A DNA stretch of 64,000 nucleotides from Bdellovibrionales bacterium (GTDB lineage Bacteria > Bdellovibrionota > Bdellovibrionia > Bdellovibrionales > JAUICD01): contig OZ241865.1 in the NCBI GenBank assembly GCA_965203275.1, forward strand, positions 1,056,001-1,120,000, given 5' to 3'. Position 1 is the first letter of the stretch; every line of letters begins with the position of its first letter. The position numbers and the translations under genes were made by a program. Below are positions 9,190-53,677 of the stretch, piece after piece. A model generated the notes under the pieces. It saw only the letters and a list, made by a program, of their open reading frames with translations, searched no databases and was not told where the DNA came from.

Positions 9190-9388
9190 GTTTCACTCAA
9201 AATGCATCATGCCTCTGGTTCACTAAAAGTAAACTAGCCTCTGGCTACTTTTGGACATTGCTCTGACAGCTTACGCTGTCCAAAAAGAGCAATGTCTCAA
9301 AAGTCCGTTTACTTTTAGTAAGGAGGATCTCTTCGTTTTTTGACACGATGTTAAGGAAAAAGTTCCTTTGGTTCACTCAAAATAAATC
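9190..9388. repeat. Structured repeat cluster 1: module A copy (9217-9366) flanked by two GTTTCACT/GGTTCACT-end fragments
   Basis: P1 ACTAAAAGTAAAC 9222-9234 pairs with 9307-9319; TAGCC-TCT-GGCTA hairpin; GACAGC-TTAC-GCTGTC hairpin; ATGTTAAGG at 9348. Confidence 0.92.
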
Positions 9389-9489
9389 CTGAGTTTGATA
9401 GCCAGCAAAAATAAAGTTGATTAAAATCAGTAGGTTATGAGTCGAACGGCATTATTTTTATCGGCAGAATCAGTGGGGAAAGTGTTTTT

Positions 9490-9783
9490 TTATTGACCTT
9501 TTTTATTATTATTAAGTAAATGATTAATGATCATATCTTGCCCATCTTTAACCTCTTTAATGTCTTCTTTAAGCTCTATCCTAAGCTCTTTAAGCCCTAT
9601 CTTAACTTCTTTAATGTCTTCTTTAAGCTCTATCTTCACCTCTTTAATCTCTGTAGGTAGATGATTACTTACTTGATAAGTTAAATACAAAAGTAAAATA
9701 AACATACATAGAACAATAAAAGTGATCATGCCATGCTGTTTAAAATATTTATCTATTTTCTCCCACAAAACTAAGTAACTCAT
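9490..9783 (-). CDS. Small membrane-anchored coiled-coil protein
   Basis: TM helix, QVSNHLPT motif, IKEVKIELKED repeats; resembles the 3332-4501 protein. Confidence 0.7.
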   Translation of the reverse strand: MSYLVLWEKIDKYFKQHGMITFIVLCMFILLLYLTYQVSNHLPTEIKEVKIELKEDIKEVKIGLKELRIELKEDIKEVKDGQDMIINHLLNNNKKGQ

Positions 9784-9889
9784 TTTTCCCCCGTGTGCTA
9801 ATTGTCCCTGAACTATATATCAGAATAAAAAGTTTTTCTTTATATATTATACTAGATTATTTTGTGGGATATGTCAAGAAAACTCAACT

Positions 9890-10543
9890 GTTTCACTAAA
9901 AGTAAACCAGCCTCTGGCTGTTTTTGGGCAATCAGCCTTTGATCGACGGCGAGAGCCGTCGGGCTAACTGCCAGAAAACATGCCAGAGGCATGATGCATT
10001 TTGAGTGAATTAGAGGCATATCTTGTTTCCTTAACATTGTGTAAAAAAACGAAGAGATCCTCTCTACTAAAAGTGGTCAGGCTTTTGAGGTGATGACCAT
10101 TTTATCGACGGCGAGAGCCGTCGTGGTCATCACCCAAAAGTGACCAGAGGTCAGACCACTTTTAGTGAGCCAACGCACTTATTTCTAAAAGAGGTTCCTA
10201 CGGGTAGACGAAGATCACCGAAATTAGACAATGAAAGGCCCAAAAAAAAATGATATGTACAACAAAATCAAGGTAAATACAAATTTTAGTAGTGAATTTC
10301 TAGCCGATCTCCTCAAAAAGGAACTTTTTCCCTAACATGTAGTCAAAAAACGAAGAGATCCTCTCTACTAAAAGTGGTCAGGCTTTTGAGGCAATGACCA
10401 TTTTGTCAAAGGCGAAAGCCTTTGCGGTCATTGCCCAAAAGTGACCAGAGGTCAGACCACTTTTAGTGAGCCAACGCACGTATTTCTAAAAGAGGTTCCT
10501 ACGGGTAGACGAAGATCACCGAAATTAGACAATGAAAGGTCCA
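9890..10543. repeat. Structured repeat cluster 2: fold-back chimera plus two module A copies with a duplicated 70-bp flank
   Basis: Copies at ~10020-10171 and ~10320-10472, each followed by a near-identical AACGCAC...AATGAAAGG segment. Confidence 0.92.
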
Positions 10544-10619
10544 TATAAAGTATTGAAACATTTATGCCGATAAGTTGAGTAGATAACAAAAAAAGAGACT
10601 GGATAAAGGGAATTTAGTT

Positions 10620-11513
10620 ATGTACTCTAAATTTAAAGTTTCAGAGAGGATTTTTGTCTATATTACTTTAGGGTTTATCATTTTGATTTTGCTTGCTGTC
10701 TTTCAGAACTGCGAATCAGGAACTATTATTATACCCTCTACTAGTACTACATCTATACCACCTGTACCCAAACCATTTCCAAGCCCGCGTGATCTCAATG
10801 ATATTTCTCCTTCATCTACCCCTTATCGCCCTTCTAGCACTTACACCAACAATCCATCACCTACTATTGCCACCCACCCCTCACCTAGCCCAACACCTGC
10901 TACACCTTGCACAGCAGAAGAGACAAGACAAGGATTTAAGATGAAAAATCATCGATGTCTTCCTTCCTGTGAGTATTTTCATCAAGAAGGTATGAACGCC
11001 CCTGGCGTGACTATGGGTAAAGATACCCAATGTGAAGAAACAAGTCGTTATCATATTCTACCAATCCAACATCCTGTCCATGATGCAGAAAAATGTTGCC
11101 GTAAGTCTAGTAGAATGAATTGTCCTTCAGGCTATCAAAAGCTAACTCGCAATGATGGCACTTATTGTTTCCCTAATTGCGGAACAGCCGCTAATTATGC
11201 AGGTTATGGTGGGCTAGGTCCTGATCGCCGACGAAACACACCTGACGATCCTCACATATTGTCTGTTGGAGCTTCTTGTAGCACTTTAACTGCCAATGGA
11301 CGAAGCGATTGGAGTGACTTTGAATTTTATGATCCTTATACTTTGTTGCCCGATTTGTCTAGTAGACAAGATGTATATGAAGTGATCAATCGTGGGTCAA
11401 ATAATGAAAATCTTGTGTGTTGTAAAAGAGGAACACAAACCAATTTATCTGTGGATTATAGAGAAGATGGAACACATCCAGGCGAAGATGAAGCTTTGGT
11501 TTTTGATGACTAA
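10620..11513 (+). CDS. Cys-rich putative lipoprotein with Pro/Ser/Thr linker
   Basis: Signal peptide ending VFQNC; P/S/T-rich stalk; Cys-rich region with GPDRRRNTPDD. Confidence 0.75.
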   Translation: MYSKFKVSERIFVYITLGFIILILLAVFQNCESGTIIIPSTSTTSIPPVPKPFPSPRDLNDISPSSTPYRPSSTYTNNPSPTIATHPSPSPTPATPCTAEETRQGFKMKNHRCLPSCEYFHQEGMNAPGVTMGKDTQCEETSRYHILPIQHPVHDAEKCCRKSSRMNCPSGYQKLTRNDGTYCFPNCGTAANYAGYGGLGPDRRRNTPDDPHILSVGASCSTLTANGRSDWSDFEFYDPYTLLPDLSSRQDVYEVINRGSNNENLVCCKRGTQTNLSVDYREDGTHPGEDEALVFDD

Positions 11514-11640
11514 GACTAAGCTTTCTTTTTGACAAATTAAGCATGAGAAAGGAGCTATGACCTTTATTATTGTCCTAAAATAGCTATTATTTAGAAAAAA
11601 CCTTAACTTTTCCCCTTAACTTTTCCGATGATCAATGAGA

Positions 11641-11949
11641 TCAGTCATCATAATATACAATTTTAAGATCTTTGTGTGAGGTGGGTTTAGCCTGACAAGT
11701 TAAAATATCTCCGCGAGCTATCTCTTCGTCTGTGAGAGCGTCATTATTTTCCATTATGACATCTCCGGATAAAAGTTTAGCTCTACAGGTTGTACACACT
11801 CCAGCCATACAAGAATAAGGAGCATCCAATCCTGCTTGCAGTGCTGATTCAAGAAGTGTCTCTCCTGGCTGTACTTTTACAGTCATACTTTCGTCTCCTA
11901 GGTTTACTTTCATATCAATGGGCTGAGTAATAAGCTGAGATGTTGACAT
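11641..11949 (-). CDS. 2Fe-2S ferredoxin
   Basis: PYSCMAGVCTTC...LTCQA plant-type ferredoxin motif. Confidence 0.93.
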   Translation of the reverse strand: MSTSQLITQPIDMKVNLGDESMTVKVQPGETLLESALQAGLDAPYSCMAGVCTTCRAKLLSGDVIMENNDALTDEEIARGDILTCQAKPTSHKDLKIVYYDD

Positions 11950-12092
11950 TAAAATCCTTTCATATTTATTATTGTGAGTATTTCTTATTCAATCAGGAAT
12001 CACAAGAGTTTTTATCAATCTATAATCAATCTCTATTTTATAGTCATAAGGCTATATTGACCTTTAGCTTTCTAATATTTTACAATATTTTT

Positions 12093-12992
12093 ATGTCTAG
12101 TCAAAAAGCACCATCTTACACTGATGATATTTATAGTTTAAAATATCAAATACAGCAAATGCAAAAGCAGATAGATCAAAAAGATAGAGATTTAAGAACC
12201 TATAAAGAAGAAATCAAACGTTTAAATGCACAGCTCAAGCCTTTAATTCGAAATATAGAAAACCAACTCAAAGCAGCATCTCAAATACAAAAATATTTGA
12301 TACCTACAGAGATTTTACAAATTTCTGGATTTGATTTTTCTACAAAATACATTTCAGGTCCTGCTTCTGGGGGGGATTACTTTGATATATTCAAGCTTAA
12401 AGACAAACACCGCTTTGCTGTTATTGTAGCTTCTTCTTCAGGCCATGCTATGGCAGCTTTATTTTTATCTGTACTCATTCAGTTATCTTCTCAAATAGAA
12501 GCTAAAAGAAACAGCTCTCCAGCAAAAGTTCTTAAATTTTTAAGTACAAAGCTATCTGAAGCAACACAGACAACTGATACATCGAGTGTATTTTTACTGA
12601 TCATCAATCGTCGGACTTTAGAAATGACTTATTGTAGTGCAGGTGATTTAATGGCATGGTTTCAACCATACAATCCTCTGCAAGCTGGTGGGGATAAACT
12701 CCAAGTTTTAACACCTTCTTCTCCTTCATTGGGATTAACACAGCATAAAGATCTCTCTGAATCTAAATTGTCTCTTAATGCAAAGGATCGTATTATGATC
12801 ATCACTCCAGGGATTATTTCTGCTCTAAATGCTCAAAACTATTCTATTGAGAATTTATTAGAACAAATGAAGACCAAAGAACCCCATGATTTAAGAAATG
12901 AAATCATTTATCAAGCTCAAAAACAAGGTGTCCAAAAGGATATGACAGCAGTTGTGATTGATGTCAAAAGCCGTATTTTAAAGCTAACTTGA
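12093..12992 (+). CDS. PP2C/SpoIIE-family phosphatase-like protein with N-terminal coiled coil
   Basis: ASQIQKYLIP, SGGDYFD, SGHAMAALF, YCSAG motifs; several metal-binding Asp positions look degenerate; start estimated. Confidence 0.8.
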   Translation: MSSQKAPSYTDDIYSLKYQIQQMQKQIDQKDRDLRTYKEEIKRLNAQLKPLIRNIENQLKAASQIQKYLIPTEILQISGFDFSTKYISGPASGGDYFDIFKLKDKHRFAVIVASSSGHAMAALFLSVLIQLSSQIEAKRNSSPAKVLKFLSTKLSEATQTTDTSSVFLLIINRRTLEMTYCSAGDLMAWFQPYNPLQAGGDKLQVLTPSSPSLGLTQHKDLSESKLSLNAKDRIMIITPGIISALNAQNYSIENLLEQMKTKEPHDLRNEIIYQAQKQGVQKDMTAVVIDVKSRILKLT

Positions 12993-12999
12993 AGTAAAA

Positions 13000-13800
13000 T
13001 TACACATTCCAATATTTTTCAAAATGAATATTCCCTGGTTGCCTTCGAGAATGAACAGAGAATCCAAGTTTTTCTAAAATAGCCACCATATCTTGAATCA
13101 TATAAGGGTTGCCACACAGCATGATATGTGTATTTTGAGGGGAGATCTGACATCCTAAACTTTGCTCAATAACTTTACTTTGCCATAAAAGCTGTACTCG
13201 CCCTACGGCTTTTTGACTTGCTTGCCACGTAGGATCAGGTCGACTCACAATAGGAAAATAAAAAAAATTCTTATTTTTTGTAGTCATTTCTATCAGTTCC
13301 GTTTCATAACCTAAGTCGTTTTTATAACGGACTCCATGCAAAAGAACCACTTTATAATCTAAGCGATCTCTTAAAATATGAGATCGAAGCATACTCACAA
13401 AAGGAGCAACACCCGTTCCTGTAGCAATCCAAATTAAATGTGTTTGATCGGGTATAGGATCAAGGGTAAAAAAACCAGCTGCTTTTTTAGCCATCCAAAG
13501 AATATCACCCTCTCTCAAATGAAACAGTCGATGAGTGAGAAGTCCTGATTTAACTTGAGTGATAAAATATTCCACGTGGTTTATTTCACTTTGTCCAGAA
13601 GCAATAGAATAAGATCGTCTTATCCAACGTTGTTTCAGAGGCTTATCCGAGCGATCTGTGATAGGTTGTAAGTCTTCTAAAAGTCCTAAAGTACCAAATT
13701 GACCAGGCTTAAATGGAGCCATAGAACCTTCTAAAAGCCTAATCTTTAAAATCATAAGATTTTTATGAATAAGCTTTTTAGAAATAATTTTTGCATTCAT
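13000..13800 (-). CDS. fpr: Ferredoxin--NADP+ reductase
   Basis: FKPGQF, RRSYSIAS, ATGTGVAPF, LCGNPYMI, C-terminal EKYW. Confidence 0.92.
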   Translation of the reverse strand: MNAKIISKKLIHKNLMILKIRLLEGSMAPFKPGQFGTLGLLEDLQPITDRSDKPLKQRWIRRSYSIASGQSEINHVEYFITQVKSGLLTHRLFHLREGDILWMAKKAAGFFTLDPIPDQTHLIWIATGTGVAPFVSMLRSHILRDRLDYKVVLLHGVRYKNDLGYETELIEMTTKNKNFFYFPIVSRPDPTWQASQKAVGRVQLLWQSKVIEQSLGCQISPQNTHIMLCGNPYMIQDMVAILEKLGFSVHSRRQPGNIHFEKYWNV

Positions 13801-13976
13801 TTTATTTCCTTTAAAGTAATAGGGTTATTTCATTGCTAAATAGCATTGCAATTACCCTCATTAGATATATTTTGATAAGGAAAAAAACAACTAAAAAGAG
13901 TATATTCCAGCACATTCATTGGCAAAACATAAATGATTATAGAATTCATATTAAAATACAGAACACTATAATGCTC

Positions 13977-14528
13977 TTAAGCTGCTTTGAATACATGAGA
14001 TAAAGAATGAAAAAGTTTTTCGATAGATGTCACTTCATGCACAAGAAGAAAATCTTCATGATCAATAAAACCTTCCTTCTGAATATACCTGAGGTGATTC
14101 ATTAACAAATCATAAAACCCTAAATGATTTAAAATAAAGATAGGCTCTTGATGATGATCTAACTTGCTCCAAGTGAGGACCTCAAACAACTCATCTAAAG
14201 TGCCAAAACCTCCAGGTAAAATCAGAAAGGCATCAGCTAGATCATACATTTTTTCTTTTCTTTCATGCATGGTATTGACAGAAATAAGCTCTGTAAGACC
14301 TGTATGAACTTTTTCTTTCCCAAGCATTTTTTGAGGAAACACACCATAGGCGTGACCGCCATGTTCTAAAACAGAATCAGCGACAGCTGTCATAATGCCT
14401 TCACAGGCTCCTCCATAGACAAGATCCCATGAATATTCGACTAACTTCTTCCCAAGCGATTTGCCCAAATCAATATAATCTTGTGTGGGAGAACGCATCC
14501 CACAGAAAACACAAAGTTTTTTATTCAT
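13977..14528 (-). CDS. LOG-family nucleotide phosphoribohydrolase
   Basis: LVYGG, MHERK, LPGGFGTLDELFE motifs. Confidence 0.93.
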   Translation of the reverse strand: MNKKLCVFCGMRSPTQDYIDLGKSLGKKLVEYSWDLVYGGACEGIMTAVADSVLEHGGHAYGVFPQKMLGKEKVHTGLTELISVNTMHERKEKMYDLADAFLILPGGFGTLDELFEVLTWSKLDHHQEPIFILNHLGFYDLLMNHLRYIQKEGFIDHEDFLLVHEVTSIEKLFHSLSHVFKAA

Positions 14529-14724
14529 AATTTCACCTCTATCACTTCTATACTTCTATCACTTCTATACTTCTATAACAAGTATTTTACAAGTTTGAAA
14601 CATCAAAATCAATGAAAATATCCATTTCATTTGACTTTTATACAGTTTAAAGTTACTTTAAAATTTTTTTATGTTTCAATCAGACTGGGATTAGACAATA
14701 ATAGATGTGTAAGAAGGAAGTACC

Positions 14725-15450
14725 ATGTTCATCACCTTACTTTTGAAGTCTTTTAGGCTCAAAGCATTATTATTCATATTTATCTTTTGTTTTCCAAGCC
14801 TTGCTCATACTAACTCCATGGATGTGATCCTCTATGGAGGTATGAAGCGATTTAATGGAACAAAAATCAGTGAACCTAGCTTAGGTCCTTACAAGGCTAG
14901 TTTTGAAAATCATGCTTGGATTTTTGGTATGGATGCTGTTTATAAATTTCCCATTCGTTTAAATATAGGCATAAGGTACCAACACCTTATATCTTCAGGT
15001 ATGTACAAGCACACTATAGAGGAATCTCAAACACAAGAAGATATTGAAAAGCTACAACCTTTTTATTTTAATTTTGATCGTATTTCTTTTTTAACTAGCT
15101 ACCAGTTTATTTCTCGTCCTGCTCCTGCAGGATTTTTTTTAGGACTTTTGTTGGCTATAGATATTTGGCACTATATGAAATTTGACATGCCTGAAACAAA
15201 CGATATGCCTTTTGATAAAAAACTAACCCATCAACAATGGTTATGGGAAAAGATCACAGGTCAAGCTGGATTAGAACTTGGTTTGAGATGGACTCATTTA
15301 TTTATAAAGACAGAGGTGGGGTATATTTTATCATCTTTTGATAATTTAATTTGTCAATCTAATACGAAGCAATGCGATAGCCATACATCAGAAGATATTT
15401 TTTCTTTAAGCTCTTTTTACGGTATTATAGGTATAGGTTATTCTTTCTAA
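14725..15450 (+). CDS. Hypothetical outer-membrane beta-barrel-like protein
   Basis: Signal peptide, amphipathic strands, C-terminal GIGYSF. Confidence 0.6.
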   Translation: MFITLLLKSFRLKALLFIFIFCFPSLAHTNSMDVILYGGMKRFNGTKISEPSLGPYKASFENHAWIFGMDAVYKFPIRLNIGIRYQHLISSGMYKHTIEESQTQEDIEKLQPFYFNFDRISFLTSYQFISRPAPAGFFLGLLLAIDIWHYMKFDMPETNDMPFDKKLTHQQWLWEKITGQAGLELGLRWTHLFIKTEVGYILSSFDNLICQSNTKQCDSHTSEDIFSLSSFYGIIGIGYSF

Positions 15451-17225: not shown

Positions 17226-17246
17226 CTTTTATGTCACTGTTTAAGA

Positions 17247-31435: not shown

Positions 31436-31975
31436 TTTCACTAAAAATAAACCAGCCTCTGGCTGTTTTTGGGCATTGCTCTGACAGCTTACGCTGTCTA
31501 AAAAGAGCAATGCCTCAAAAATCCGTTTATTTTTAGTAAAGAGGATCTCTTCGTTTTTTGACTACATGTTAAGGAAAAAGTTCATTTAGATGCCGGGTTG
31601 CCGGATCCCAGATCCTGGATAAATACCATGTTAAGGAAAAATTTCTTTTATTGCCTCAAGAGCAAGCAGTTTGCGAATAAAACTCTTTTTCCTTAACATT
31701 TCACTCAAAATGCATCATGCCTCTGGCTACTTTTGAGGGTTAGCCTTTGGTCGACGGTGATAGCCAAAAGGTGTAAAATAGGACTTTTTCCTTAACATGG
31801 AGTTAAGGGACGAAGGGATCCTCCCTACTAAAAGTGGTCAAGCTTTCTAGGCAATGACCATTTTGCCAATGGCGAAAGCCATTGCGGTCATTGCCAGAAA
31901 GTAGCCAGAGGCTAGACCACTTTTAGTGAGCCATTGCCCAAAAACAGCCAGAGGCTAGTTCAATTTTAGGGAAAC
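31436..31975. repeat. Structured repeat cluster 3: module A copies in both orientations, heptamer module C, fragments
   Basis: Copies at ~31436-31583 and ~31782-31932; heptamers ~31589-31620; terminal fragment overlaps the kinase stop codon. Confidence 0.92.
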
Positions 31976-37539: not shown

Positions 37540-37900
37540 TTTTCTTAACACAGTGTTAATCCCGGGATCCCGGGATCCCTAACCCCACCCCCCACCCTTC
37601 GATTCTGCCTTTTCATTTTGTTTTTACTTGAGGATGGGGCAGTGTGAGCCTTCCGAAGTCCTCAATTGAGCTTGCTTTTAAAGAGCAAGCTCAATTTGCG
37701 GAAGATCTCCAGGCTCCCACTGCCCCATCCTCTTAATTAATTACTTTTTGTTTGAGATTTATGCAGAATCTAAAAGAGAATAAAAAAACAAAAAAACGAG
37801 CTTTTTCCTTAACATGGAGTTAAGGGACGAAGGGATCCTCCCTACTAAAAGTAAACGGACTTTTGAGGTAGCCAGAGGCTAGTTTACTTTTAGTGAAAAA
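37540..37900. repeat. Structured repeat cluster 4: long hairpin module B plus a module A copy lacking the long arm
   Basis: GAGGATGGGGCAGTG 37630-37644 pairs with 37718-37732; AATTGAGCTTGCT 37664-37676 pairs with 37684-37696. Confidence 0.9.
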
Positions 37901-38004: not shown

Positions 38005-38148
38005 ATTCAAATTTGATCTTTTCTGGGATCTGGGATCCGGGATCTGGCATCCCGGCATCAGGTTCCAGAGCATTGATTGTAATGAATTTTTTCATCTAAA
38101 AAATTTCCTCCCAAGCCCTGGCGGGTTTTTAGAAAGGAGGAAATTTTT

Positions 38149-38454
38149 ATGACGATGAAAAAATTCAAAACTTACCAATTAGCTACTCAATTTTATCGTA
38201 ATTCTAAAAAATTACATCTGAAAGAGCCTCATAGAAGTCAGTTTCGAAGGGCTGTCTCAAGTATTGTACTTAACTTAGCTGAAGGATCTGCTAAACCTAC
38301 AGCAAAAGATCGTAGGAAGTTTTATTATATTAGTCTTGGTTCTTTAAGAGAGGTTCAAGCGATATTGGATCTAGAGTTTATTGGCTGTATGGAATTAGCA
38401 AAACAAGCTGATAAATTAGGAGCTTATTTATACAAACTGTGTAAAAATACTTAA
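38149..38454 (+). CDS. Four-helix-bundle protein (23S rRNA IVP / Avd-like family)
   Basis: QFRRAVSSIVLNLAEGS...RKFYYISLGSLREVQ family pattern; GGAGG SD. Confidence 0.9.
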   Translation: MTMKKFKTYQLATQFYRNSKKLHLKEPHRSQFRRAVSSIVLNLAEGSAKPTAKDRRKFYYISLGSLREVQAILDLEFIGCMELAKQADKLGAYLYKLCKNT

Positions 38455-38464
38455 ATTCAATTTT

Positions 38465-38728
38465 GATCTTTTCCGGGATCTGGGATCCGGGATCTGGCAG
38501 TCAGGCAGAGATGAAGCGAATAGCTTGTTTCCTTAACATCGTGTTAAAAAACGAAGGTTTCCTTCCTACTCAAAATAAATGAATTTTCTAAGCAGTTAGC
38601 CTTTGTCGACGACGAAAGTCGTCGGGCTAACTGCCAGAAAACATGCCAGAGGCATGATGCATTTTGAGTGAACCAAACGGCTAGACCACTTTTAGTGAAC
38701 CAGAGGTGTGGCTCATTTTGAGTGAAAC
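38465..38728. repeat. Structured repeat cluster 5: heptamers, module A copy, two end fragments
   Basis: CCGGGAT/CTGGGAT tract, TTTCCTTAACAT site, copy ~38521-38674 with GAAA loop. Confidence 0.9.
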
Positions 38729-40098: not shown

Positions 40099-42546
40099 TT
40101 AATCGGTTATGTCGTCTGAGGATAACTCAGAAGGCCCTGGATGATTAATATTGCCAGTGCCACCACCACTTGCTTTTGGCCATTTACACTGGATCTCTCT
40201 TTTATTGCCACACTGGGTAAGTCTTGTATGTGGTTTGTTACGGCAAGTCCACCGATGGTGGGTGGCATTGTCTCCTGGATGTGGATGATGGACTCCTTCA
40301 GAACATTTATTATTTATGTTGCCACACACACCACAGACACTTCTGTCAGTCTTATCTCTACTACACCTGACCTCTCTTTTATTGCCACATTTAGCAAGTC
40401 TTGTATGTGGACGATTACGACAAGTCCACCGATGGTGGGTGGCATTAGCTCCTGGGTGTGGATGAACTACTCCAGCAGAACATGTATTAGCTTTTGAGCC
40501 ACAACGTCCGCAGACAGTATTGTCAGCTCTTTCTTTACTACACCTCACCTCTTTTTTATTACCACACTTAGCAATTTTTGTATGTGGACGATTACGACAA
40601 GTCCATCGATAGTGAGTGGTGTTATGACCAGGGTGCGGGTGACGTGTTCCGGACACACATGCATTGACTGTGTTGCCACACTCTCCACAGACACCATTGA
40701 CAGCATTCGGCTTACTACACCTAACCTCTCTTTTATTACCACACTGGGCAAGTCTTGTATGTGGTTTGTTACGGCAAGTCCAGCGATAGTGAGTGGCATT
40801 AGCTCCTGGGTGCGGGTGATGGCTTCCAGCAGAACATGTATTGGCTTTTGAACCACAACGTCCGCATTTCACCGATTTGCTGACAGGCTTTTTCTTACTA
40901 CACCTGATCTCTCTTTTATTGCTACACTGGGCAAGTCTTTTATGTGGCTTGTTACGGCAAGTCCACCGATAGTGGGTGGCATTAGCTCCTGGGTGCGGGT
41001 GATGGCTTCCAGCAGAACATGTATTTGGCTTTGAACCACAACGTCCGCATTTCACCGATTTGCTGACAGGCTTTTTCTTACTACACCTGATCTCTCTTTT
41101 ATTACTGCACTTGGCATTTTTGGTATGTGGCTTGTTACGGCAAGTCCATCGATAATGAGTGGCATTAGCTCCTGGATGTGGATGAACTACTCCAGCAGAA
41201 CATGTATTTGGCTTTGAACCACAACGTCCGCATTTCACCGATTTGCTGACAGGCTTTTTCTTACTACACCTGATCTCTCTTTTATTACTGCACTTGGCAT
41301 TTTTGGTATGTGGTTTGTTACGGCAAGTCCATCGATAATGAGTGGCATTAGCTCCTGGATGTGGATGAACTATTCCAGCAGAACATGTATTTGGCTTTGA
41401 ACCACAACGTCCGCATTTCACCGATTTGCTGACAGGCTTTTTCTTACTACACCTGATCTCTCTTTTATTACTGCACTTGGCATTTTTGGTATGTGGCTTG
41501 TTACGGCAAGTCCATCGATAATGAGTGGCATTAGCTCCTGGATGTGGATGAACTACTCCAGCAGAACATGTATTTGGCTTTGAACCACATTTTCCACAAG
41601 TCACTGGTTTGCTGACAGGCTTTTTCTTACTACACCTGATCTCTCTTTTATTACTGCACTTGGCATTTTTGGTATGTGGTTTGTTACGGCAAGTCCACCG
41701 ATGGTGAGTGGCATTGTCTCCTGGATGTGGATGAAGTGTTCCAACAGAACATGTATTGGGCTTTGAACCACATTTTCCACAAGCCACTGGTTTGCTGACA
41801 GGCTTTTTCTTACTACACCTGATCTCTCTTTTATTACTGCACTTGGCATTTTTGGTATGTGGTTTGTTACGGCAAGTCCACCGATGGTGAGTGGCATTGT
41901 CTCCTGGATGTGGATGAAGTGTTCCAACAGAACATGTATTGGGCTTTGAACCACATTTTCCACAAGCCACTGGTGTTGGGCTTTTTATTGGTGATGGACT
42001 TGGTCTTGGTGATTCTGCAACGTTAGCTATCGATCTAGAATGATAAATCCAAGTACCTTCTCTATCTGTTTGCACATTCCAGGTGAATTGAGGATTGCTG
42101 TTACAATTGTTAAGAATTTGTACAACACTGATCTCGCTACTTCCTTGACAGCCTGTGGCAATTCTCTTTTTACAGTAAGCAATATTAACTTTTGAAATTT
42201 GATTTGGGTTGGTAATACAATCTTGATCTATTGGACAGTAATATCCGTAACGCCAAGACCTGCTAGAATGACTGTGGTATCTTAAATCATCTATTACATC
42301 ATCTATAAAATCATAATTATTACAAGCATTCTCATCAGGTGGTAACATGCCAATAAATGGCTCTGGAGTGTCCTCTGGCACTGCTGGTGGTATATATTGG
42401 GAGGGGGTCACTATTTGAGGGGAAGCAGATGTAGAAACACTTTGAGTAGGATTATTTTTTGATTCACAATTGTTAAATTGTAAGCCAAGTAGAGCAAAAG
42501 ATATAATGATCACAATAAGAGAAAATTTTTTTCCTTTTATTTCCAT
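40099..42546 (-). CDS. Cys/His-rich tandem-repeat putative lipoprotein
   Basis: FNNC signal end; ten ~61-aa repeats CGxCG...C...HPHPG...RWTC...C...C with 183-bp DNA period. Confidence 0.88.
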   Translation of the reverse strand: MEIKGKKFSLIVIIISFALLGLQFNNCESKNNPTQSVSTSASPQIVTPSQYIPPAVPEDTPEPFIGMLPPDENACNNYDFIDDVIDDLRYHSHSSRSWRYGYYCPIDQDCITNPNQISKVNIAYCKKRIATGCQGSSEISVVQILNNCNSNPQFTWNVQTDREGTWIYHSRSIANVAESPRPSPSPIKSPTPVACGKCGSKPNTCSVGTLHPHPGDNATHHRWTCRNKPHTKNAKCSNKREIRCSKKKPVSKPVACGKCGSKPNTCSVGTLHPHPGDNATHHRWTCRNKPHTKNAKCSNKREIRCSKKKPVSKPVTCGKCGSKPNTCSAGVVHPHPGANATHYRWTCRNKPHTKNAKCSNKREIRCSKKKPVSKSVKCGRCGSKPNTCSAGIVHPHPGANATHYRWTCRNKPHTKNAKCSNKREIRCSKKKPVSKSVKCGRCGSKPNTCSAGVVHPHPGANATHYRWTCRNKPHTKNAKCSNKREIRCSKKKPVSKSVKCGRCGSKPNTCSAGSHHPHPGANATHYRWTCRNKPHKRLAQCSNKREIRCSKKKPVSKSVKCGRCGSKANTCSAGSHHPHPGANATHYRWTCRNKPHTRLAQCGNKREVRCSKPNAVNGVCGECGNTVNACVSGTRHPHPGHNTTHYRWTCRNRPHTKIAKCGNKKEVRCSKERADNTVCGRCGSKANTCSAGVVHPHPGANATHHRWTCRNRPHTRLAKCGNKREVRCSRDKTDRSVCGVCGNINNKCSEGVHHPHPGDNATHHRWTCRNKPHTRLTQCGNKREIQCKWPKASGGGTGNINHPGPSELSSDDITD

Positions 42547-46357: not shown

Positions 46358-46369
46358 TTTTGTACCTAT

Positions 46370-47780
46370 ATTCACTAAAAGTAAACTAGCCTCTGGCTAC
46401 TTTTGGGTTGCCAGCCCGACGGCTCTCGCCGTCGATCAAAGGCTGATTGCCTCAAAAATCCGTTTATTTTTAGTAGGAAGAATCCTCTTGTCTCTTTACA
46501 CGATGTTAAGGAAACAAGATATCCACTCCCGGGATCAGGCAATCAGGCATCCCGGGATCTGATGCCGGGTTGCCGGATCCCGGATCCCGGATAAATATCA
46601 TGTTAAGGAAAAAGTTCCTTCTGTTTCACTGTTTCACTAAAAGTAAACTAGCCTCTGTTTCACTCAAAGTGAACTGGCCTCTGGCCACTTTCTGGCGATG
46701 ACCACGATGGCTTACGCCGTTGACAAAATGGTCATCGCCTAGAAAGCCTGTTCACTTTGAGTAGGGAGGATCTCCTCGTTTTTTTACTACATGTTAAGGA
46801 AACAAGCTATTTGTTTCACTCAAAATAAATCATGCCTCTGGCATGTTTTCTGGCAGTTAGCCCGACGGCTCACGCCGTCGATCAAAGGCTAACTGCCTAG
46901 AAAATCCATTTATTTTTAGTAGGAAGAATCCTCTTGTCTCTTTACACGATGTTAAGGAAACAAGATATCCACTCCCGGGATCAGGCAATCAGGCATCCCG
47001 GGATCTGATGCCGGGTTGCCGGATCCCTGATCCCGGATCCCGGATAAATATCATGTTAAGGAAAAAGTTCCTTCTGTTTTACTGGTTCACTAAAAGTAAA
47101 CTAGCCTCTGGCTACTTTCTGGCAATGACCGCAATGGCTTTCGCCATTGGCAAAATGGTCATTGCCTAGAAAGCTTGACCACTTTTAGTAGGGAGGATCC
47201 CTTCGTCCCTTAACTTCATGTTAAGGAAAAAGTCCTTTCTTACACCTTTTGACCACGATGGCTTTCGCCATTGGCAAAATGGTCATCGCCTAGAAAGCCT
47301 GACCACTTTTAGTAGGGAGGACCTCCTCATCTCTTTACACGATGTTAAGGAAACAAGACATTCACTCCCGGTATCTTGGATCTGGCACTGGCATCCCGGG
47401 TTCCGGGACTTGATGCCGGTTTGCCGGATACCAGATCCCAGAAAAAGGATCCCTTTATGTCTTTATACCATGTTAAGGAAATAAACTATTTGTTTTTTTG
47501 TTTTTTTATTTTCTTTTAGATTCTGCGTAATTTTCAAAAAAGCATGAGTATTATGAGTGGGAGGCGGGGGCAGGCTGAAGATCTTCCGCAGACCCGCTTG
47601 CTCCCTAAAAACATTTTAGAAGCATATCTTGTTTCCCTAACATGGTGTAAGAAGCAAGGAGATCCTCCTCTACTCAAAATGAGCGGATTTTTTAGGTGTT
47701 GCCTATTTTGTCAAAGGCGTAAGCCTTTGCAGGCAACACCAAAAAACACACCAGAGGTGTGGCTCATTTTGAGTGAAAAA
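46370..47780. repeat. Structured repeat cluster 8: 1.4-kb array of modules A, C and partial B
   Basis: ATGTTAAGGAAA at about 46503, 46600, 46791, 46949, 47053, 47218, 47342, 47470; inverted A copy ~47625-47780. Confidence 0.93.
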
Positions 47781-47795
47781 AATAGATGTTCTCTG

Positions 47796-48020: not shown

Positions 48021-48051
48021 ACAACCTCCTCAGGTATTCAGTATAAAAAAC

Positions 48052-49401
48052 TTAATGATGTTTTTGTTTAATTTCTGCCTCTGCCTTCCCTTGAGCAAAG
48101 GTGATCTGCACTACATCGCCTAATTTTATATTTTGAACAGATGTGATAATCTTTGGTTCTTTAAGCAATTTCACAATAGAATAACCTCTGGTCATTACTT
48201 TTAATGGACTTAAGGAGTCTAAAAGTTCTGCTTGATTTTGTAAAGCGAGTTTTTTATTAGCTAAAAAATAATCCATGCCTTTTCTTAGGTTTTCAGATAA
48301 GGAGTTTAATTTCTGTGCCTCTATTTGCCACGTTTGATCTATACGGGTTAATTTTTCTCTATTATTGTTATACCTTTCCCTTAGGAGTCTTAAAGTGTAT
48401 TGAAAGGCTTTTTGCAATCTTTGAAGAAGCTCATCATTTCTTTGGAAAAGTTCTTGTAAAACTTTTTGAGGGTCTTTGAGCCTTTTTGATAACTGCAAAT
48501 ATTTTTGTTGATGTTTTGCAATATGGCTGTGCATGGCATTTGTGAATCGGCAAGTTAAGTGATGAATAGTTTCTTTTATTTCTGTTTTATCTGGTACAAG
48601 AATTTCGGCTGCTACAGAAGGAGTGGGGGCCCGTTGATCAGCCACAAAATCAGAAAGTGTGAAATCAACCTCATGCCCTATAGCTGATACGATAGGAATG
48701 CTAGAAAAGGCTATACATCTAGCCACATCTTCATTATTAAAGCACCAGAGATCTTCCATAGAACCTCCTCCTCTAGCTACAACCATCACATCAAAAGCAG
48801 GTCTGACTTGATGAGCTAAATCAATAGCTCTAATAATTTCAGGGACAGCAGCTTCCCCTTGAACAAGAGTAGGAATTAAAGTGATCTCTAAACCTTGAAA
48901 CCGTCGAGTGAGAACATTGAGCAGATCTTTAATCACAGCCCCTGTAGGAGATGTGACAAGAGCTATTCTTTGAGGATACTTAGGTAGAGGTTTTTTACGT
49001 TCTAGATCAAAGAGTCCTTCGGATTGCAATTTTTGTTTAACCTGTTCAAATTGAGCTTGCAAAGCCCCTTGACCAACTGGTTGCATTTGATAGCACAAAA
49101 GCTGGTACTCTCCCCTTTTAATAAAGGTACTCACAGAAGCTCTGACAAGGACCTCCATGCCATCTTCCGGTGAAAACTCAAGTTTCAGGTTATAACTCTT
49201 AAACATCACAGCCCTAATTTGAGATTTACTATCTTTAAGAGAGAAATAACAATGCCCAGAAGAATGCCTCTTAAAATTAGAAACCTCCCCTTGTACCCAT
49301 ATTCTAGGAAAGTGACCTTCAAGCTGGGATTTAATAACAGTGTTGATCTGCGTAACAGAATAAGTTGGTTGATCCTCATCAGTGGTGTGAAGTATTGTCA
49401 T
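48052..49401 (-). CDS. xseA: Exodeoxyribonuclease VII large subunit
   Basis: GEVSN...SGHCYFSLKD, ARGGGSMEDL, IGHEVDFT, APTPS. Confidence 0.97.
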   Translation of the reverse strand: MTILHTTDEDQPTYSVTQINTVIKSQLEGHFPRIWVQGEVSNFKRHSSGHCYFSLKDSKSQIRAVMFKSYNLKLEFSPEDGMEVLVRASVSTFIKRGEYQLLCYQMQPVGQGALQAQFEQVKQKLQSEGLFDLERKKPLPKYPQRIALVTSPTGAVIKDLLNVLTRRFQGLEITLIPTLVQGEAAVPEIIRAIDLAHQVRPAFDVMVVARGGGSMEDLWCFNNEDVARCIAFSSIPIVSAIGHEVDFTLSDFVADQRAPTPSVAAEILVPDKTEIKETIHHLTCRFTNAMHSHIAKHQQKYLQLSKRLKDPQKVLQELFQRNDELLQRLQKAFQYTLRLLRERYNNNREKLTRIDQTWQIEAQKLNSLSENLRKGMDYFLANKKLALQNQAELLDSLSPLKVMTRGYSIVKLLKEPKIITSVQNIKLGDVVQITFAQGKAEAEIKQKHH

Positions 49402-49763
49402 TGATATATCCCCTTTCTGGCTAGTTTGATTTCTTATCTCATAAGCTAAACTTATTTGTTTAATTTTCACGAATGTAGACTATCCGCAAGACAAGAATTT
49501 ATCAATAAAAAAAGCAATCCTTATGACGATCCTACCTAAGTATTGCTATCTTTTTATGATGAAATTTATGATGAAATCAATCATATTTTATTCCTAAGAC
49601 CATTCATAATTGTCTTGAATTATAGTTTTTTATAGTGTAAAATATAGTATATAACCAAGCTACGCTTTCAAGCTACGCTAAAAATTATTTAAACCGGTAG
49701 GCCATGACATGAATGCAGAAGTACTCACTCAATTTATTTTAATTTTATGAGGTTATTTATATT

Positions 49764-50180
49764 ATGAAAGTTATATTTATACTATGTACCTTATCTATAC
49801 TTTGCTTTTTCATATTGATAAATAGCAATAATCAATCAGTGGAACTCACATCTCAATCAATTACTCATGATAGTGAAGAGGTTGATTGTTACTGGCTAGA
49901 TAAAGAATATGATCGTATTGTCAGCTGGAATAATAAAAATGAGAGAGAGGTCACAGTCACGCCGGAAGGGCTTGTGATGACTGTTTTGACTGTAGTCACA
50001 CTACCTATTAGATGGATCGATGATTTTTTGAGCGAAGATGTTGAATATCATTTTTCTGATAATCCAGATGATGTCGTAGCAGCCGCAGAAAAAAAAGAAT
50101 GTTACGAGTTATTAGAAAAAATCAATCAAGATCGCATCAATGGTACTTACCCTCTTCCTCCAGAATCAAATCAGAAATAA
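49764..50180 (+). CDS. Hypothetical exported protein
   Basis: N-terminal hydrophobic segment, GAGG SD. Confidence 0.6.
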   Translation: MKVIFILCTLSILCFFILINSNNQSVELTSQSITHDSEEVDCYWLDKEYDRIVSWNNKNEREVTVTPEGLVMTVLTVVTLPIRWIDDFLSEDVEYHFSDNPDDVVAAAEKKECYELLEKINQDRINGTYPLPPESNQK

Positions 50181-50291
50181 CAAATATGTTTAATATTCTT
50201 TCTTCAAATAAAAGAGCAAATATTCATAAGGGGATTATAACTTAAGTTGAATAGAATAAACTAGAAGTTTATTTATGTTGCAAACATTCTC

Positions 50292-52562
50292 TTATCTATG
50301 TTGGCTAGTGATTTCATAAGATACAACAATATTTAAAGTAGCAAAAGTGCGAATATCAAAAGGATCATGATCTGCAAAAACGCTTTCATTGAGTTTTAAT
50401 TGAACGGCCTGATCATCAGATGAAATTTCCATCTCAAAGTCTTCTTGAGAAGCTAACTTTCCATTTAGCTCCACCTGAGCTGAAGTGATCAAAACTTCTT
50501 GTGTAGAAGGTTTATGATGTTGAGGATCACTTTGCAAAACCAATGGATGTCTCTGCACATTGTCTATTAAACGTCCTACTTCATATTCTATATAAATTTC
50601 AGAACCTCGATGGGGAGGTTGGTTAAAAACAATATAATTATCTTCTATAAAAAAATTATCCTCTAATTGACCATCAACAGTCACAAGATGAACTTGTATA
50701 GGTTGATTGCTTTCTAATAACCAATGTGATTGAAGCTCTGGCTTGCCACTAGACATATTTGAATCAATATCTTGCACCTCAATTTGTATATTTTTAAAAT
50801 AAGAGGTCAAAGAAATCTCTCTTTCATTTAAGTTTAGGAAAGGATTTAATGGAGATGACTCTTCTACAATATATTCTAACCTATAAAAAACATCGATTTG
50901 TTCTTTCACTTGATCAGTGATCTCTAAGATATTTGAACTGTTTAATGCTTTCAGATCAAACCATTGACCTGATGAAGCTTCTACAAGAGATGGATATTCA
51001 AAATAATTTTTAGAAAATCCATCATAATCATAAGTCAGAGCAAAAACTTGAATATTATTCTTTTCAAGTGCGTTTAGAACAGTAGGATAGTCTGGAGCTG
51101 TCAGAGCCTCTATCCCTCGATCAAATGGCTTAACCCAAAATAAAGCATCTGTGATTAAAATAACCATACGTTGACTATTAGGTTGCCAAGGAGCTTGCGT
51201 TGCGGTCAGTAGTCCTCCTAATGCATTTTCTTTATAACTGCCCCCTCCTCCTAAGTTTAAACCAGAAAGATCATCTAAAAAGCTTATAAAATTTTCATTC
51301 TCTGGTGTTAAAGGATGATCTTCAATAAATTTATTACATACTTTTTCGACTCTATCTCTAAAGGTGACAAGACAAAACTTTGCATCAATAGCATTTTCTT
51401 GCAGTATATCTACAAAATAAGCCATGTTTTCTTTAATTAAATGCATGTACCTTCGCATAGACCCCTGTGTATCAATAGCAAGTACCACTTCTAATGAAAG
51501 ATTTTTTTTCTCTGTATAAGACGACAAAGTATAATTTTGAATCTCTATTTGATTTTCTGTCACAGTTATATCTTCGTTTTGCAAATCTTTTATATTAAAA
51601 CCTCTCTCATTATATGCTTTAAACAAGACAGCTGTTGTATTTTGTATAGGCTGTTTAAATAAATGTTGACTCCATGTATAAGGAAACTGATCACGAAACT
51701 CATGTTGAGATTGCATTTGTATCAAAGGTGGGGGAGGTGGAGGTGGAGGCGGAGGCGGATGCAAAATAACTGGAGGTGGTATATCGGGTAAAGAAGGTGA
51801 AAGTATTCTAGGAGCTTGAGTTATATATTGAATGTTTTGACTTGCAGATAAAGGAGGCGGAGGTGGGATATTTTGACGACCTCCTATAATATTGGGAATA
51901 ACATCAGATGAAGGAATTAAAGAAAATAACAAAGGAGGGGGAGGTGGAGGCGGAACAACGGGAGGTGGTATATCAGGTAAAGAAGGTGAAAGTATTCTAG
52001 GAGCTTGAGTTATATATTGAACGTTTTGACTTGCAAATAAAGGAGGCGGAGGTGGGATATTTTGACGACCTCCTACAATATTGGGAATAACATCAGATGA
52101 GGGGATTGCAGAAAATAACAAAGGAGAGGGAGGTGGAGGTGGAGTCAGAACAACGGGAGGTGGTATATCGGGTAAAGAAGGTGAAAGTATTCTAGGAGCT
52201 TGAGTTATATATTGAATGTTTTGACTTGCAGATAAAGGAGGCGGAGGTGGGATATTTTGACGACCTCCTATAATATTGGGAATAACCTCTGATGAAGGAA
52301 TTAAAGAAAATAACAAAGGAGGTGGATGGATAGTGTGTTCTCCTCTAACTATATTATTTAATATTTGAGATGATTTTATGTTAAAAGGTTCTAAAGTGAT
52401 TGGATGTGGCTTCATCTCTTGAGATATAACAGGATAAGGTTGAGGTGGTGACATAGGTCGTGGTATCATTTCACTTTTTAAAGAAAAAGACACATTCTTG
52501 CCACATCCACAGCATAAGAAAAGAATACATAATAAAATGAGATTTTGCTTTTGTATATCCAT
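50292..52562 (-). CDS. vWA-domain putative lipoprotein with Pro-rich repeats
   Basis: Signal with Cys; three ~63-65-aa Pro-rich repeats; vWA motifs IDTQGSM, LVTFRD, ILITDA. Confidence 0.85.
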   Translation of the reverse strand: MDIQKQNLILLCILFLCCGCGKNVSFSLKSEMIPRPMSPPQPYPVISQEMKPHPITLEPFNIKSSQILNNIVRGEHTIHPPPLLFSLIPSSEVIPNIIGGRQNIPPPPPLSASQNIQYITQAPRILSPSLPDIPPPVVLTPPPPPSPLLFSAIPSSDVIPNIVGGRQNIPPPPPLFASQNVQYITQAPRILSPSLPDIPPPVVPPPPPPPLLFSLIPSSDVIPNIIGGRQNIPPPPPLSASQNIQYITQAPRILSPSLPDIPPPVILHPPPPPPPPPPPLIQMQSQHEFRDQFPYTWSQHLFKQPIQNTTAVLFKAYNERGFNIKDLQNEDITVTENQIEIQNYTLSSYTEKKNLSLEVVLAIDTQGSMRRYMHLIKENMAYFVDILQENAIDAKFCLVTFRDRVEKVCNKFIEDHPLTPENENFISFLDDLSGLNLGGGGSYKENALGGLLTATQAPWQPNSQRMVILITDALFWVKPFDRGIEALTAPDYPTVLNALEKNNIQVFALTYDYDGFSKNYFEYPSLVEASSGQWFDLKALNSSNILEITDQVKEQIDVFYRLEYIVEESSPLNPFLNLNEREISLTSYFKNIQIEVQDIDSNMSSGKPELQSHWLLESNQPIQVHLVTVDGQLEDNFFIEDNYIVFNQPPHRGSEIYIEYEVGRLIDNVQRHPLVLQSDPQHHKPSTQEVLITSAQVELNGKLASQEDFEMEISSDDQAVQLKLNESVFADHDPFDIRTFATLNIVVSYEITSQHR

Positions 52563-52642
52563 AATAGCCTAGTATGTTCTTGTGTTCTTTATTACATTAT
52601 TAATAAAAAGAACCTTAAAAGCTATTCTACAAAAGTCTCAAT

Positions 52643-53677
52643 TTTCACTAAAAGTAAACTGACCTCTGGTCACTTTTGGGCATTGGCTCACTAAAAGTGG
52701 TCTAGCCTCTGTTTCACTCAAAATGAGCCACATCTCTGGTGTGTTTTTGGGCATTGCTCTGACAGCTTACGCTGTCTAAAAAGAGCAATGTCTCAAAAGT
52801 CCGTTTACTTTTAGTAGGAAGGATCTCATCGTCTCTTAACCACATGTTAAGGGTTTGTTTCACTCAAAATGCATCATGCCTCTGTTTCCCTAAAATTGAA
52901 CTAGCCTCTGGCTACTTTTGGGCAGTTAGCCCGACGACTGTCGTCGTCGATCAAAGGCTAACTCCCTCAAAAGCTTGTTCAATTTTAGGAAGAAGGATCT
53001 CCTCGTCTCTTGACCACATGTTAAGGAAAATATCCTTTTAATACCAGTTAGCCCAACGGCTTATCGCCGTTGATCAAAGGCTAACTGCCTAGAAAATCCA
53101 TTTATTTTGAGTAGGGAAGGATCTTCTCGTCTCTTAACCACATGTTAAGGAAAAAGTTCTTTTTTTTTGTTTTTTTATTTTTTTAGATTCTGCGTAAAAC
53201 CTCAAACAAAAAGTAATTAGGTGGAGGATGGGGCAGTGGGAGACTGAAGATCTTCCGCAAATTGAGCTTGCTCTTTAAAAGCAAGCTCAATTGAGGACTT
53301 CGGAAGGCTCTCACTGCCCTATCCTCAAATAAAAATAAAATGGAAAAGCAGAATCGAAGGGCGGTGGGTGGGGTTAGGGATAATCCTTTTGTTGCCGGGG
53401 TCCCGGAGGGAGAATATCCGTATTTCACTATCAATGTGTATTATATTGATACAGAATCTTAGAAAAATTATATATTTTTTACTTTTTTCATTAAATTGTC
53501 GATAAGTCGTTTATAATGACTTTAAGGAGTTGGTTCACTAAAAGTAAACTAGCCTCTGGCTACTTTTGGACATTGCTCTGACAGCTATCGCTGTCCAAAA
53601 AGAGCAATGTCTCAAAAGTCCGTTTACTTTTAGTAGAAAGGATATCCTCATTTTTTAACACGATGTTAAGGAAAAAA
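52643..53677. repeat. Structured repeat cluster 9: module A copies and fragments plus module B
   Basis: A copies at ~52711, 52884, 53532; partial ~53045; module B ~53161-53400, inverted relative to the 37.6-kb copy. Confidence 0.92.

What the first reader, a model, noticed from the sequence alone, without database searches (positions are those of the whole stretch)
9190..53677. Dispersed ~150-bp three-way-junction element (module A) with extensive compensatory covariation within one genome
Seen: about 18 near-complete copies in nine intergenic clusters share one fold but differ in sequence. Example 10367-10468 (+): ACTAAAAGTGGTC-agg-CTTTTG-a-GGCAATGACC-atttt-G-t-CAAAGGC-gaaa-GCCTTTG-C-GGTCATTGCC-CAAAAG-TGACC-aga-GGTCA-GACCACTTTTAGT. 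The outer stem occurs as ACTAAAAGTAAAC, ACTAAAAGTGGTC, ACTCAAAGTGAAC, ACTAAAAATAAAC, ACTCAAAATGCAT, ACTCAAAATGAGC and CCTAAAATTGAAC, each with its matching complement. The small hairpin arm is TAGCC, CAGCC, TGACC, CAACC, TGGCC, CATGCC or CACACC around a near-invariant CC-AGA-GG. The long arm also covaries, while the bulged A, the T-rich bulge and the 3-purine linker are kept. Inference: selection acts on a single-stranded structure, so this is a structure-recognised mobile or recombination element, or a multicopy ncRNA. I do not recognise it as a known REP, MITE, attC or ribozyme.
Basis: partly seen in the sequence, partly recalled or inferred. Interest (0 to 1): 0.92.

Follow-up and report, generated by a model that had tools for sequence, protein, structure and literature searches.

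The report
Self-nesting three-armed hairpin DNA repeat
A 150-base non-coding DNA unit that keeps a three-armed fold while its letters vary is scattered in hundreds of copies through this bacterial genome, and its insertion scars look more like those of RNA-copied animal repeats than of known bacterial jumping DNA, although the copying enzyme was not found.

Summary
Observation confirmed: 18 near-full copies in nine clusters. Genome-wide there are 620 full copies (549 distinct), about 6.7% of the DNA. 436 of 549 have a perfect 13-bp outer stem (73 expected if the arms were independent), and nested stems reassort but stay paired. One strand is the folding one (G·T 117, A·C 32). The unit is longer than described: a 5' leader with two hairpins and a 9-nt A/C-rich 3' tail. 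The 3' joint is near-fixed with no target consensus; the 5' joint varies, carries upstream DNA along, and deletes or duplicates target. Copies land in older copies (34 of 72 remnant pairs match, 11 expected); mixed clusters point outward (142 of 164). No Rfam hit; no RAYT, Y1 transposase, IS110 or reverse transcriptase found in this genome. Found only in one genus of two genomes; hits in a third lie on contaminant contigs (two of three tested). Best reading: a selfish, non-autonomous repeat copied 3'-end first from a single-stranded, probably RNA, template; enzyme unknown; a four-helix-bundle (IVP) gene is the best partner lead. This scan noted the same family in five other windows of this genome.

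The parts
10328..10346 (+). 5' leader TTCC[CT]TAACA and hairpin 1 (degenerate in this copy)
   Evidence: sequence; leader nearly invariant in 52 copies from two genomes plus contaminant contigs; 109 of 1398 3' ends join into this loop from the opposite strand
10354..10366 (+). hairpin 2 (weak, variable)
   Evidence: fold of this copy; not part of the consensus fold
10367..10467 (+). three-way junction: P1 10367-79/10455-67; purine linker 10380-82; P2 10383-99/10426-41 with bulged A 10389; T-rich bulge 10400-06; P3 10407-13/10418-24 with GNNA loop; P4 10442-54 with AGA loop
10468..10476 (+). unpaired 3' tail (GAAA/GAAC/GAGC plus about 5 A/C-rich bases)
   Evidence: joint offset mode 9 nt after the stem in 473 distinct joints; composition returns to background after position 8-9 in 407 unique flanks
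10027..10170 (+). full copy
   Evidence: CM 166 bits
9218..9358 (-). full copy, followed by a 26-nt 3' head (to about 9190), just downstream of an Rpn gene
   Evidence: CM 151 bits
9891..10010 (.). leaderless fusion with a 3' end at both sides, joined inside the P2 stem
   Evidence: listed among 21 such matches genome-wide (some overlapping)
31436..31576 (-). full copy
   Evidence: CM 152 bits
31788..31974 (+). full copy plus 3' remnant of an older copy
   Evidence: CM 159 bits
37805..37898 (+). internally deleted copy whose 3' end joins a sense fragment of an IVP gene
   Evidence: CM 88 bits
38149..38454 (+). four-helix-bundle (23S_rRNA_IVP) gene, 101 aa, with upstream RBS hairpin and flanking 7-mer repeats
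   Evidence: PF05635 E 6e-15; PDB 2GSC E 9e-4
38529..38727 (+). full copy plus two stacked 3' heads, downstream of the IVP gene
   Evidence: CM 130 bits
39897..40089 (+). full copy plus two stacked 3' heads
   Evidence: CM 147 bits
43826..44677 (-). three full copies and partial copies in a 354-bp tandem repeat
46370..47480 (-). four full copies, truncated copies, 7-mer repeats
47633..47778 (+). full copy; makes the 46370-47783 cluster point outward
   Evidence: CM 136 bits
52641..53152 (-). two near-full copies (52712-52854, 52885-53028), heads and a 3'-truncated copy
53533..53673 (-). full copy
   Evidence: CM 149 bits
8174..9181 (+). Rpn/YhgA-like nuclease gene (neighbour; candidate break-maker, not part of the unit)
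   Evidence: PF04754 E 1e-10

Best explanation
A selfish, non-autonomous repeat. The strand running leader -> three-way junction -> A/C-rich tail exists as a folded single strand, most likely RNA from read-through transcripts trimmed to about 9 nt beyond the outer stem (inferred). A protein supplied in trans recognises the fold (inferred). A free DNA 3' end at a nick or break, often in a hairpin loop of an older copy, primes copying from the tail, sometimes with 1-2 nt of pairing (joint pattern shown; chemistry inferred). Copying runs through the unit and a variable length of upstream DNA, and the new strand is joined to the other side of the target imprecisely, deleting or duplicating some target or recombining with an older copy (shown by joints). 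This gives nested copies, stacked 3' heads, mosaics and outward-pointing clusters. Only copies that keep the fold are copied again, which keeps the stems paired. The polymerase is unidentified; the co-located Avd-like IVP protein is the best lead for the binding partner, Rpn nucleases a possible source of breaks.
For: Fold kept across alleles: 436 of 549 perfect outer stems vs 73 expected; inner arms reassort under one outer allele and stay paired. One folding strand: G·T 117 vs A·C 32, distinct single-mismatch stems 34 vs 8, p 7e-5; U·G at the stem base in 51 of 52. 3' joint: offset mode 9 (86 of 473 distinct joints; 187 at 8-10), tail A 840/C 464/G 198/T 173, tail matches replaced target at 356 of 1090 bases, no base above 0.44 at 16 target positions. 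5' side variable: 452 of 1097 leader-started pieces stop early at scattered columns; 5' flanks shared with another locus in 337 of 338 (median 61 nt) but 3' flanks in 187 of 267 (median 19); eight identical copies differ just after the tail. Hand-read clean joints show 4-, 11- and 16-bp target deletions and a duplication of about 33 bp at a 5S rRNA end in the genus-mate. Nesting: 5' and 3' remnants match in 34 of 72, 10.8 expected, 0 of 5000 shuffles. Outward clusters 142 of 164, inward 4. Joints inside genes are mostly sense: IVP 21:0, Rpn 30:5; 21 of 28 sites after collapsing by eye, p 0.013. IVP tie: 25 of 26 IVP hits have a co-oriented leader within 300 bp downstream; 12 of 19 IVP loci in the genus-mate hold a copy, four of them inside the gene near codon 65, sense.
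Against: No reverse transcriptase found in this genome (0 candidates; motif scan); the genus-mate's group II and retron RTs are not built around the element (one copy lies about 440 bp from the retron gene). No PolX or LigD polymerase in the genus. GNNA loops, 182 of 530 not GNRA, suit DNA as well as RNA (recalled). Both strands fold about equally by energy. Joint statistics use only the 777 of 1398 ends with a paralogous reference, so they lean to repeated targets; one search is noisy and its output was cut. A family member carries 19 IVP matches, mostly on its large contigs, which hold no element hit, and the IVP layout is not fixed in the genus-mate. 'Other' ORFs gave 20 sense and 25 antisense joints before I dropped repeat-derived ORFs. 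No expression or read data.
Confidence: 0.45

Rival explanations
1. REPIN-like ssDNA element moved by a HUH (Y1/Y2) transposase that is lost, unassembled or too divergent to detect; cutting near resident copies explains clustering and flank capture.
For: Bulged stems, a conserved TTTC before a stem on both strands, strand-specific fold, nesting, tandem arrays and captured flanks resemble REP/BIME biology, where TnpA-REP cuts near a resident REP and can capture neighbours (PMC3333891 passages). The genome is rated 90% complete.
Against: No Y1_Tnp or RAYT (both genus members; controls rang). The genus-mate's single Y1 gene has no copy within 1.5 kb. No GTAG; no C|T or other target consensus and the tail does not match the target; target deletions and duplications; no replichore bias (312 vs 308, weak GC skew). 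IS91 searches were blank but their controls did not ring.
Confidence: 0.23
2. No dedicated enzyme: breaks from Rpn nucleases or hairpin-opening nucleases are healed by host polymerase template switching onto resident DNA copies; gene conversion and palindrome correction shuffle and re-pair the stems.
For: 40 of 41 Rpn ORFs have an element within 300 bp vs 513 of 1613 other ORFs, both sides 25 of 41 vs 64 of 1613. E. coli RpnA is a non-specific endonuclease leaving 3'-OH ends proposed to feed template switching (PMC5350276 passages). Joints cluster at hairpin loops.
Against: A family member has 17 Rpn matches and no element; in the genus-mate only 2 of 12 Rpn loci examined hold a copy. A continuous DNA template does not explain a start fixed 9 nt past the stem. 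Palindrome correction would erase the kept bulges and the strand asymmetry.
Confidence: 0.2
3. A host-serving RNA element (transcript stabiliser, terminator or multicopy ncRNA) kept by host selection.
For: Stable fold, almost wholly intergenic (22 of 878 small hairpins inside long ORFs); some arms score as terminator-like (8 vs 1.2 expected).
Against: No orientation bias to flanking genes (76/74/65/54 of 269 single-orientation clusters), no tRNA enrichment (10 of 38 vs 317 of 1550); copies break genes and each other; restricted to one genus in the genomes searched. Host co-option of some copies is not excluded.
Confidence: 0.07
4. Assembly artefact or contamination.
For: Single metagenome-assembled contig; one relative does carry contaminant contigs with the element.
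Against: 549 distinct sequences, even spread along the contig, and a diverged allele set in a second genome.
Confidence: 0.01

Closest known systems
REP / BIME / REPIN with RAYT (TnpA-REP). PMC3333891: passages seen; PMC3337134: abstract and outline seen; PMC3733652: search listing only
   Same: Hundreds of intergenic structured copies in clusters, one active strand, kept bulges, chimeras, tandem arrays, capture of flanks.
   Different: Branched 150-nt fold instead of 30-40-nt hairpins; no GTAG; no C|T or other cut consensus; fixed 3' tail and imprecise 5' joint; no RAYT found.
bcr1 of the Bacillus cereus group (as reviewed in PMC3184786; passages seen)
   Same: About 155 bp, branched RNA-level fold kept by compensatory changes, lineage-restricted, mobile; no partner enzyme named in the passages seen.
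   Different: bcr1 is cruciform-like and flanked by 5-bp direct repeats; here no consistent short duplication, plus self-nesting and module shuffling.
SINEs and template-switch chimeras of non-LTR retrotransposons (recalled, no call)
   Same: Fixed 3' end with A-rich tail, variable 5' end, no target motif, target deletion or duplication, sense-oriented chimeras.
   Different: Bacterial; no partner reverse transcriptase found; strong preference for its own hairpin loops; no RNA shown.
IVP/Avd four-helix-bundle cassettes with 7-mer arms; DGR Avd (PMC6182149: abstract and outline seen)
   Same: Physically linked here; Avd binds a structured non-coding RNA and makes an RT processive.
   Different: IVP-Avd kinship is recalled (my PDB search matched only XCC0516); no RT; IVP genes occur without the element.
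Small dispersed repeats of cyanobacteria (recalled; search did not return the paper)
   Same: Structure-conserved, self-nesting repeats associated with heptamer arrays.
   Different: Those are 21-27 nt by recall; this unit is about 150 nt.

Membership tests
REP/REPIN (RAYT) | GTAG tetranucleotide 5' of a short imperfect hairpin | tested here: not met
   consensus has TTCC/TTTC leaders and a three-way junction
REP/REPIN (RAYT) | RAYT gene flanked by the repeats | tested here: not met
   NF047646 0 of 2 genus genomes; PF01797 0 in own genome; completeness 90-92%
REP/REPIN (RAYT) | joints at C|T | tested here: not met
   no target consensus in 399 joints with offset 3-14
REP/REPIN (RAYT) | high-copy intergenic clusters, strand-specific fold | tested here: met
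IS200/IS605 MITE | precise ends, fixed 4-5-nt target, lagging-strand bias, Y1 TnpA | tested here: not met
   (replichore call weak)
IS91/ISCR rolling circle | ori end next to a target-derived tetranucleotide (recalled) | tested here: not met
   GAAN is element-derived, absent from reference targets
IS91/ISCR rolling circle | Y2 transposase | tested here: inconclusive
   no hit, but controls did not ring
classical MITE | terminal inverted repeats with fixed-length target duplication | tested here: not met
   only a loose 7-11-nt end similarity; 128 copies: direct repeats of 5/6/7/8 nt 68/15/9/3 vs shuffled 56/19/6/2; duplication of 12 nt or more in 14 of 407 vs 24 at random places
integron attC | one site per cassette gene in a co-oriented array near an integron integrase | tested here: not met
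   no orientation bias; two tyrosine recombinases, neither tested as IntI
IS110 bridge-RNA element | DEDD recombinase | tested here: not met
   PF01548 0 candidates in own genome, controls rang
Rfam family / ribozyme | match at gathering score | tested here: not met
   0 in the window; best E-value hits far below gathering in 4.3 kb
retroposon (SINE-like) | fixed tailed 3' end, variable 5' end, no target motif | tested here: met
retroposon (SINE-like) | partner reverse transcriptase | tested here: not met
retroposon (SINE-like) | RNA intermediate | not testable with these tools
   no RNA data were at hand

The most novel reading that the evidence does not exclude
A bacterial SINE-like retroposon: a 150-nt structured RNA that is copied onto broken DNA ends by an unrecognised RNA-templated polymerase activity, recruited by the Avd-like IVP protein. 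It would be a parasite of the same hidden machinery that moves the transposase-less IVP-heptamer cassettes, and would heal breaks and shuffle neighbouring genes as it spreads.
Probability: 0.22. Interest if true: 0.92.

Novelty: new variant of a known kind. Interest (0 to 1): 0.66.

Why it matters
Hundreds of natural variants of one fold in a single genome map which pairs, bulges and loops matter, and more than a thousand joints record how it moves. That record fits no characterised bacterial transposase I could test, so it is a handle on an unknown copying route, possibly the one behind the unexplained IVP genes. In practice the repeat fills about 6.7% of the genome, breaks and duplicates genes, and can mark contaminant contigs.

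Tried and rejected
Enzyme searches without a hit in the own genome: Y1_Tnp, Y2_Tnp (12, control silent), RVT_1, IS110, RAYT (105), IS91 (106, control silent), PolX thumb, LigD Prim-Pol; the one TnpB-domain hit lies in a 1365-aa frame and was not pursued; Cas1 is present in genomes with and without the element. No whole-proteome annotation was run, so an unexpected enzyme family is not excluded. A search for a long, ORF-bearing parent found 31 gapped cases, none a convincing parent. An apparent perfect co-occurrence of element, IVP and Rpn in three genomes fell apart: that third genome's copies lie on contigs C1, C4, C11; rplN on C11 is 98% and recG on C1 96% identical to the genus-mate while second copies lie on large contigs; C4 not tested. 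My idea that stacked heads come only from jumping between free templates was weakened by the matching remnants. CM searches: 3 of 151 order genomes, 1 of 151 phylum genomes, counting the own genome; only 21 candidates per genome were scored. No read-level data were obtained, so empty alleles in strains and expression remain open. Literature: nothing relevant for 'four helix bundle protein + intervening sequence + repeats', 'Avd + intervening sequence protein + mobile', TIGR02436, 23S_rRNA_IVP + repeat, GxxExxY (48), small dispersed repeats, Bdellovibrionota + sponge + repeats; the library lacks most subscription papers, ISfinder was not available, and no supplements were read. Scripts had pattern bugs; alignment A1 (60) had two wrong rows and was not used.


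Full report
Setting. The window lies in a 2,567,810-base single-contig genome, 35% G+C, rated 90% complete. A named record carrying the same element is titled a Bdellovibrionales MAG, which fits the gene content. The genome has many ankyrin, pilin-like, Rpn and four-helix-bundle paralogues.

Observation. The example is real and folds as described. A covariance model from 52 copies finds 18 near-full copies in the window. Genome-wide there are 878 CC-AGA-GG hairpins with stems of 5 bp or more, 1097 leaders, 1398 3' ends in 419 clusters and 620 full copies, 549 distinct; element k-mers cover 171,406 bases, 6.7%. Median pairwise identity among 506 distinct copies of a first set was 73%, and the top mutual-information column pairs were Watson-Crick partners.

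Anatomy. On the folding strand: leader TTCC[CT]TAACA opening hairpin 1; weak hairpin 2; outer stem P1 (13 bp); 3-purine linker; P2 with one bulged A; T-rich bulge; P3 with a GNNA loop; P4 with an AGA loop; then an unpaired tail. About 43% of copies (265 of 620; background 6%) also carry a short inverted copy of the leader start just upstream.

Selection on the fold. 436 of 549 outer stems are perfect against 73 expected. The changes fall into about ten alleles per stem, so they are few events copied many times; no tree correction was run. Stronger is the reassortment: the commonest outer allele encloses at least seven inner-arm alleles, yet each arm keeps its own partner. Mismatches are G·T rather than A·C on the leader strand (117 vs 32; 34 vs 8 among distinct single-mismatch stems), although P1 alone is nearly even when all copies are counted (28 vs 21). 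Bulges are kept, which argues against plain palindrome correction. Energy does not tell the strands, or RNA from DNA, apart.

Range. DNA search hit 3 of 41 genomes and the model 3 of 151 order genomes, own genome included; 1 of 151 in a phylum sample. The third genome's hits are on small contigs, two of which carry second, genus-mate-like copies of rplN and recG. So the element was found in one genus only. The genus-mate has at least 204 leaders and its own alleles.

How it moves, read from joints. For 777 of 1398 3' ends a paralogous stretch without the element defines the joint (473 distinct). The joint sits most often 9 nt after the stem; shorter joints often share 1-2 bases with the target. 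The tail is A/C-rich, does not match the replaced target (356 of 1090 bases) and the target shows no consensus. Long or short target duplications are not the rule; hand-read cases show deletions of 4-16 bp, and in the genus-mate duplications of about 33-70 bp that seeded tandem arrays at a 5S rRNA end, a tRNA and an intergenic repeat. The 5' side is open-ended: upstream DNA travels with the copy. Of 1398 ends, 319 join at the P4 loop of a same-strand copy, 109 in the hairpin-1 loop of an opposite-strand copy, 90 head-to-tail on a leader, 880 elsewhere. Upstream 5' pieces and downstream 3' remnants co-occur (odds 3.2) and share the outer allele in 34 of 72 cases against 10.8, so new copies replace the middle of old ones; heads share the allele of the copy before them in only 6 of 133 cases against 16. 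Mixed clusters point outward in 142 of 164. There is no bias to replichore or flanking genes, but joints inside genes are mostly sense (collapsed by eye, repeat-derived ORFs dropped).

Enzyme. None of the usual movers was found (see membership and tried lists). Two families are tied to the element. Rpn genes: 40 of 41 within 300 bp here, but 2 of 12 loci in the genus-mate and none in a relative with 17 Rpn matches. RpnA of E. coli cuts without sequence preference and leaves primable ends (PMC5350276, passages), so Rpn may supply breaks. IVP genes: 25 of 26 hits here and 12 of 19 loci in the genus-mate, with sense insertions near the same codon in both species; across the order they sit in inverted pairs or between 7-mer arms. 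A relative holds IVP genes without the element, so IVP is at most necessary. Avd of DGRs binds a non-coding RNA and makes its RT processive (PMC6182149, abstract); that IVP and Avd are kin is recalled.

Mechanism. Shown: fold conservation, strand asymmetry, near-fixed tailed 3' joint, variable 5' joint, nesting, outward polarity. Inferred: copying starts at the tail from a DNA 3' end; the template has a free 3' end, most simply an RNA trimmed to about 9 nt past a stem (exonuclease stalling distance recalled); a trans-acting protein reads the fold. I give 0.9 that it is a selfish repeat selected for its fold, about 0.7 for 3'-first copy-in, 0.45 for the whole RNA-templated reading; HUH-driven ssDNA 0.23; host repair alone 0.2.

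Comparison and verdict. It works like REPINs and bcr1 in ecology and like a SINE in its joints, and fails a defining test of each family (PMC3333891 passages; PMC3337134 abstract; PMC3184786 passages). It is in no Rfam family, and ten literature searches did not return it. Earlier scan notes describe the same family elsewhere in this genome; new here are the strand asymmetry, the tail and joint statistics, the remnant test, the polarity, and the contaminant correction. New variant of a known kind; interest 0.66.

Noticed in passing
G000:C1, e.g. 105019-105202; not in the window: A second, roughly 150-bp insert (22 full matches, often in tandem) sits in the element at one spot between P2 and P4, flanked by CA on both sides; a similar sequence interrupts IVP genes near their start in the genus-mate. 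Possibly a separate small mobile unit.
   Followed up: partly
window 38080-38150; loci L015, L018, L021: IVP genes start in a hairpin whose two arms each hold a ribosome site; in three order-level relatives both arms lead into a full IVP gene (head-to-head pair), here the left one is a stub.
   Followed up: partly
window 37559-37733 and 53160-53400: Another palindromic repeat with a long GC-rich stem; its marker occurs 64 times in the genome and is a frequent target of the element.
   Followed up: no
window 10171-10240 and 10472-10540: A further repeat module following two copies; marker found 21 times genome-wide.
   Followed up: no
G004 contigs C1, C11 (C4 untested): Contaminant contigs from a relative of the genus-mate: second rplN and recG copies.
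   Followed up: yes
L055 9670-16800; genus-mate 2843538 and 2850419: Partial duplicates of the ribosomal gene rplN a few kb apart, the first just after an element copy.
   Followed up: no
window 8174-9181 and 57 other ORFs: 58 Rpn-family ORFs and fragments in several subfamilies, many split by the element, with variable four-residue repeats near the C-terminus.
   Followed up: partly
window 3332-4501, 40099-42546, 50292-52562: Proteins built from tandem repeats (54-nt coiled-coil units; 183-nt Cys/His-rich units; proline-rich units before a VWA domain).
   Followed up: no
L029 1282-3054: 590-aa retron-type reverse transcriptase next to a tRNA in the genus-mate, with an element copy about 440 bp away; retron label from my reading of the sequence.
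   Followed up: partly
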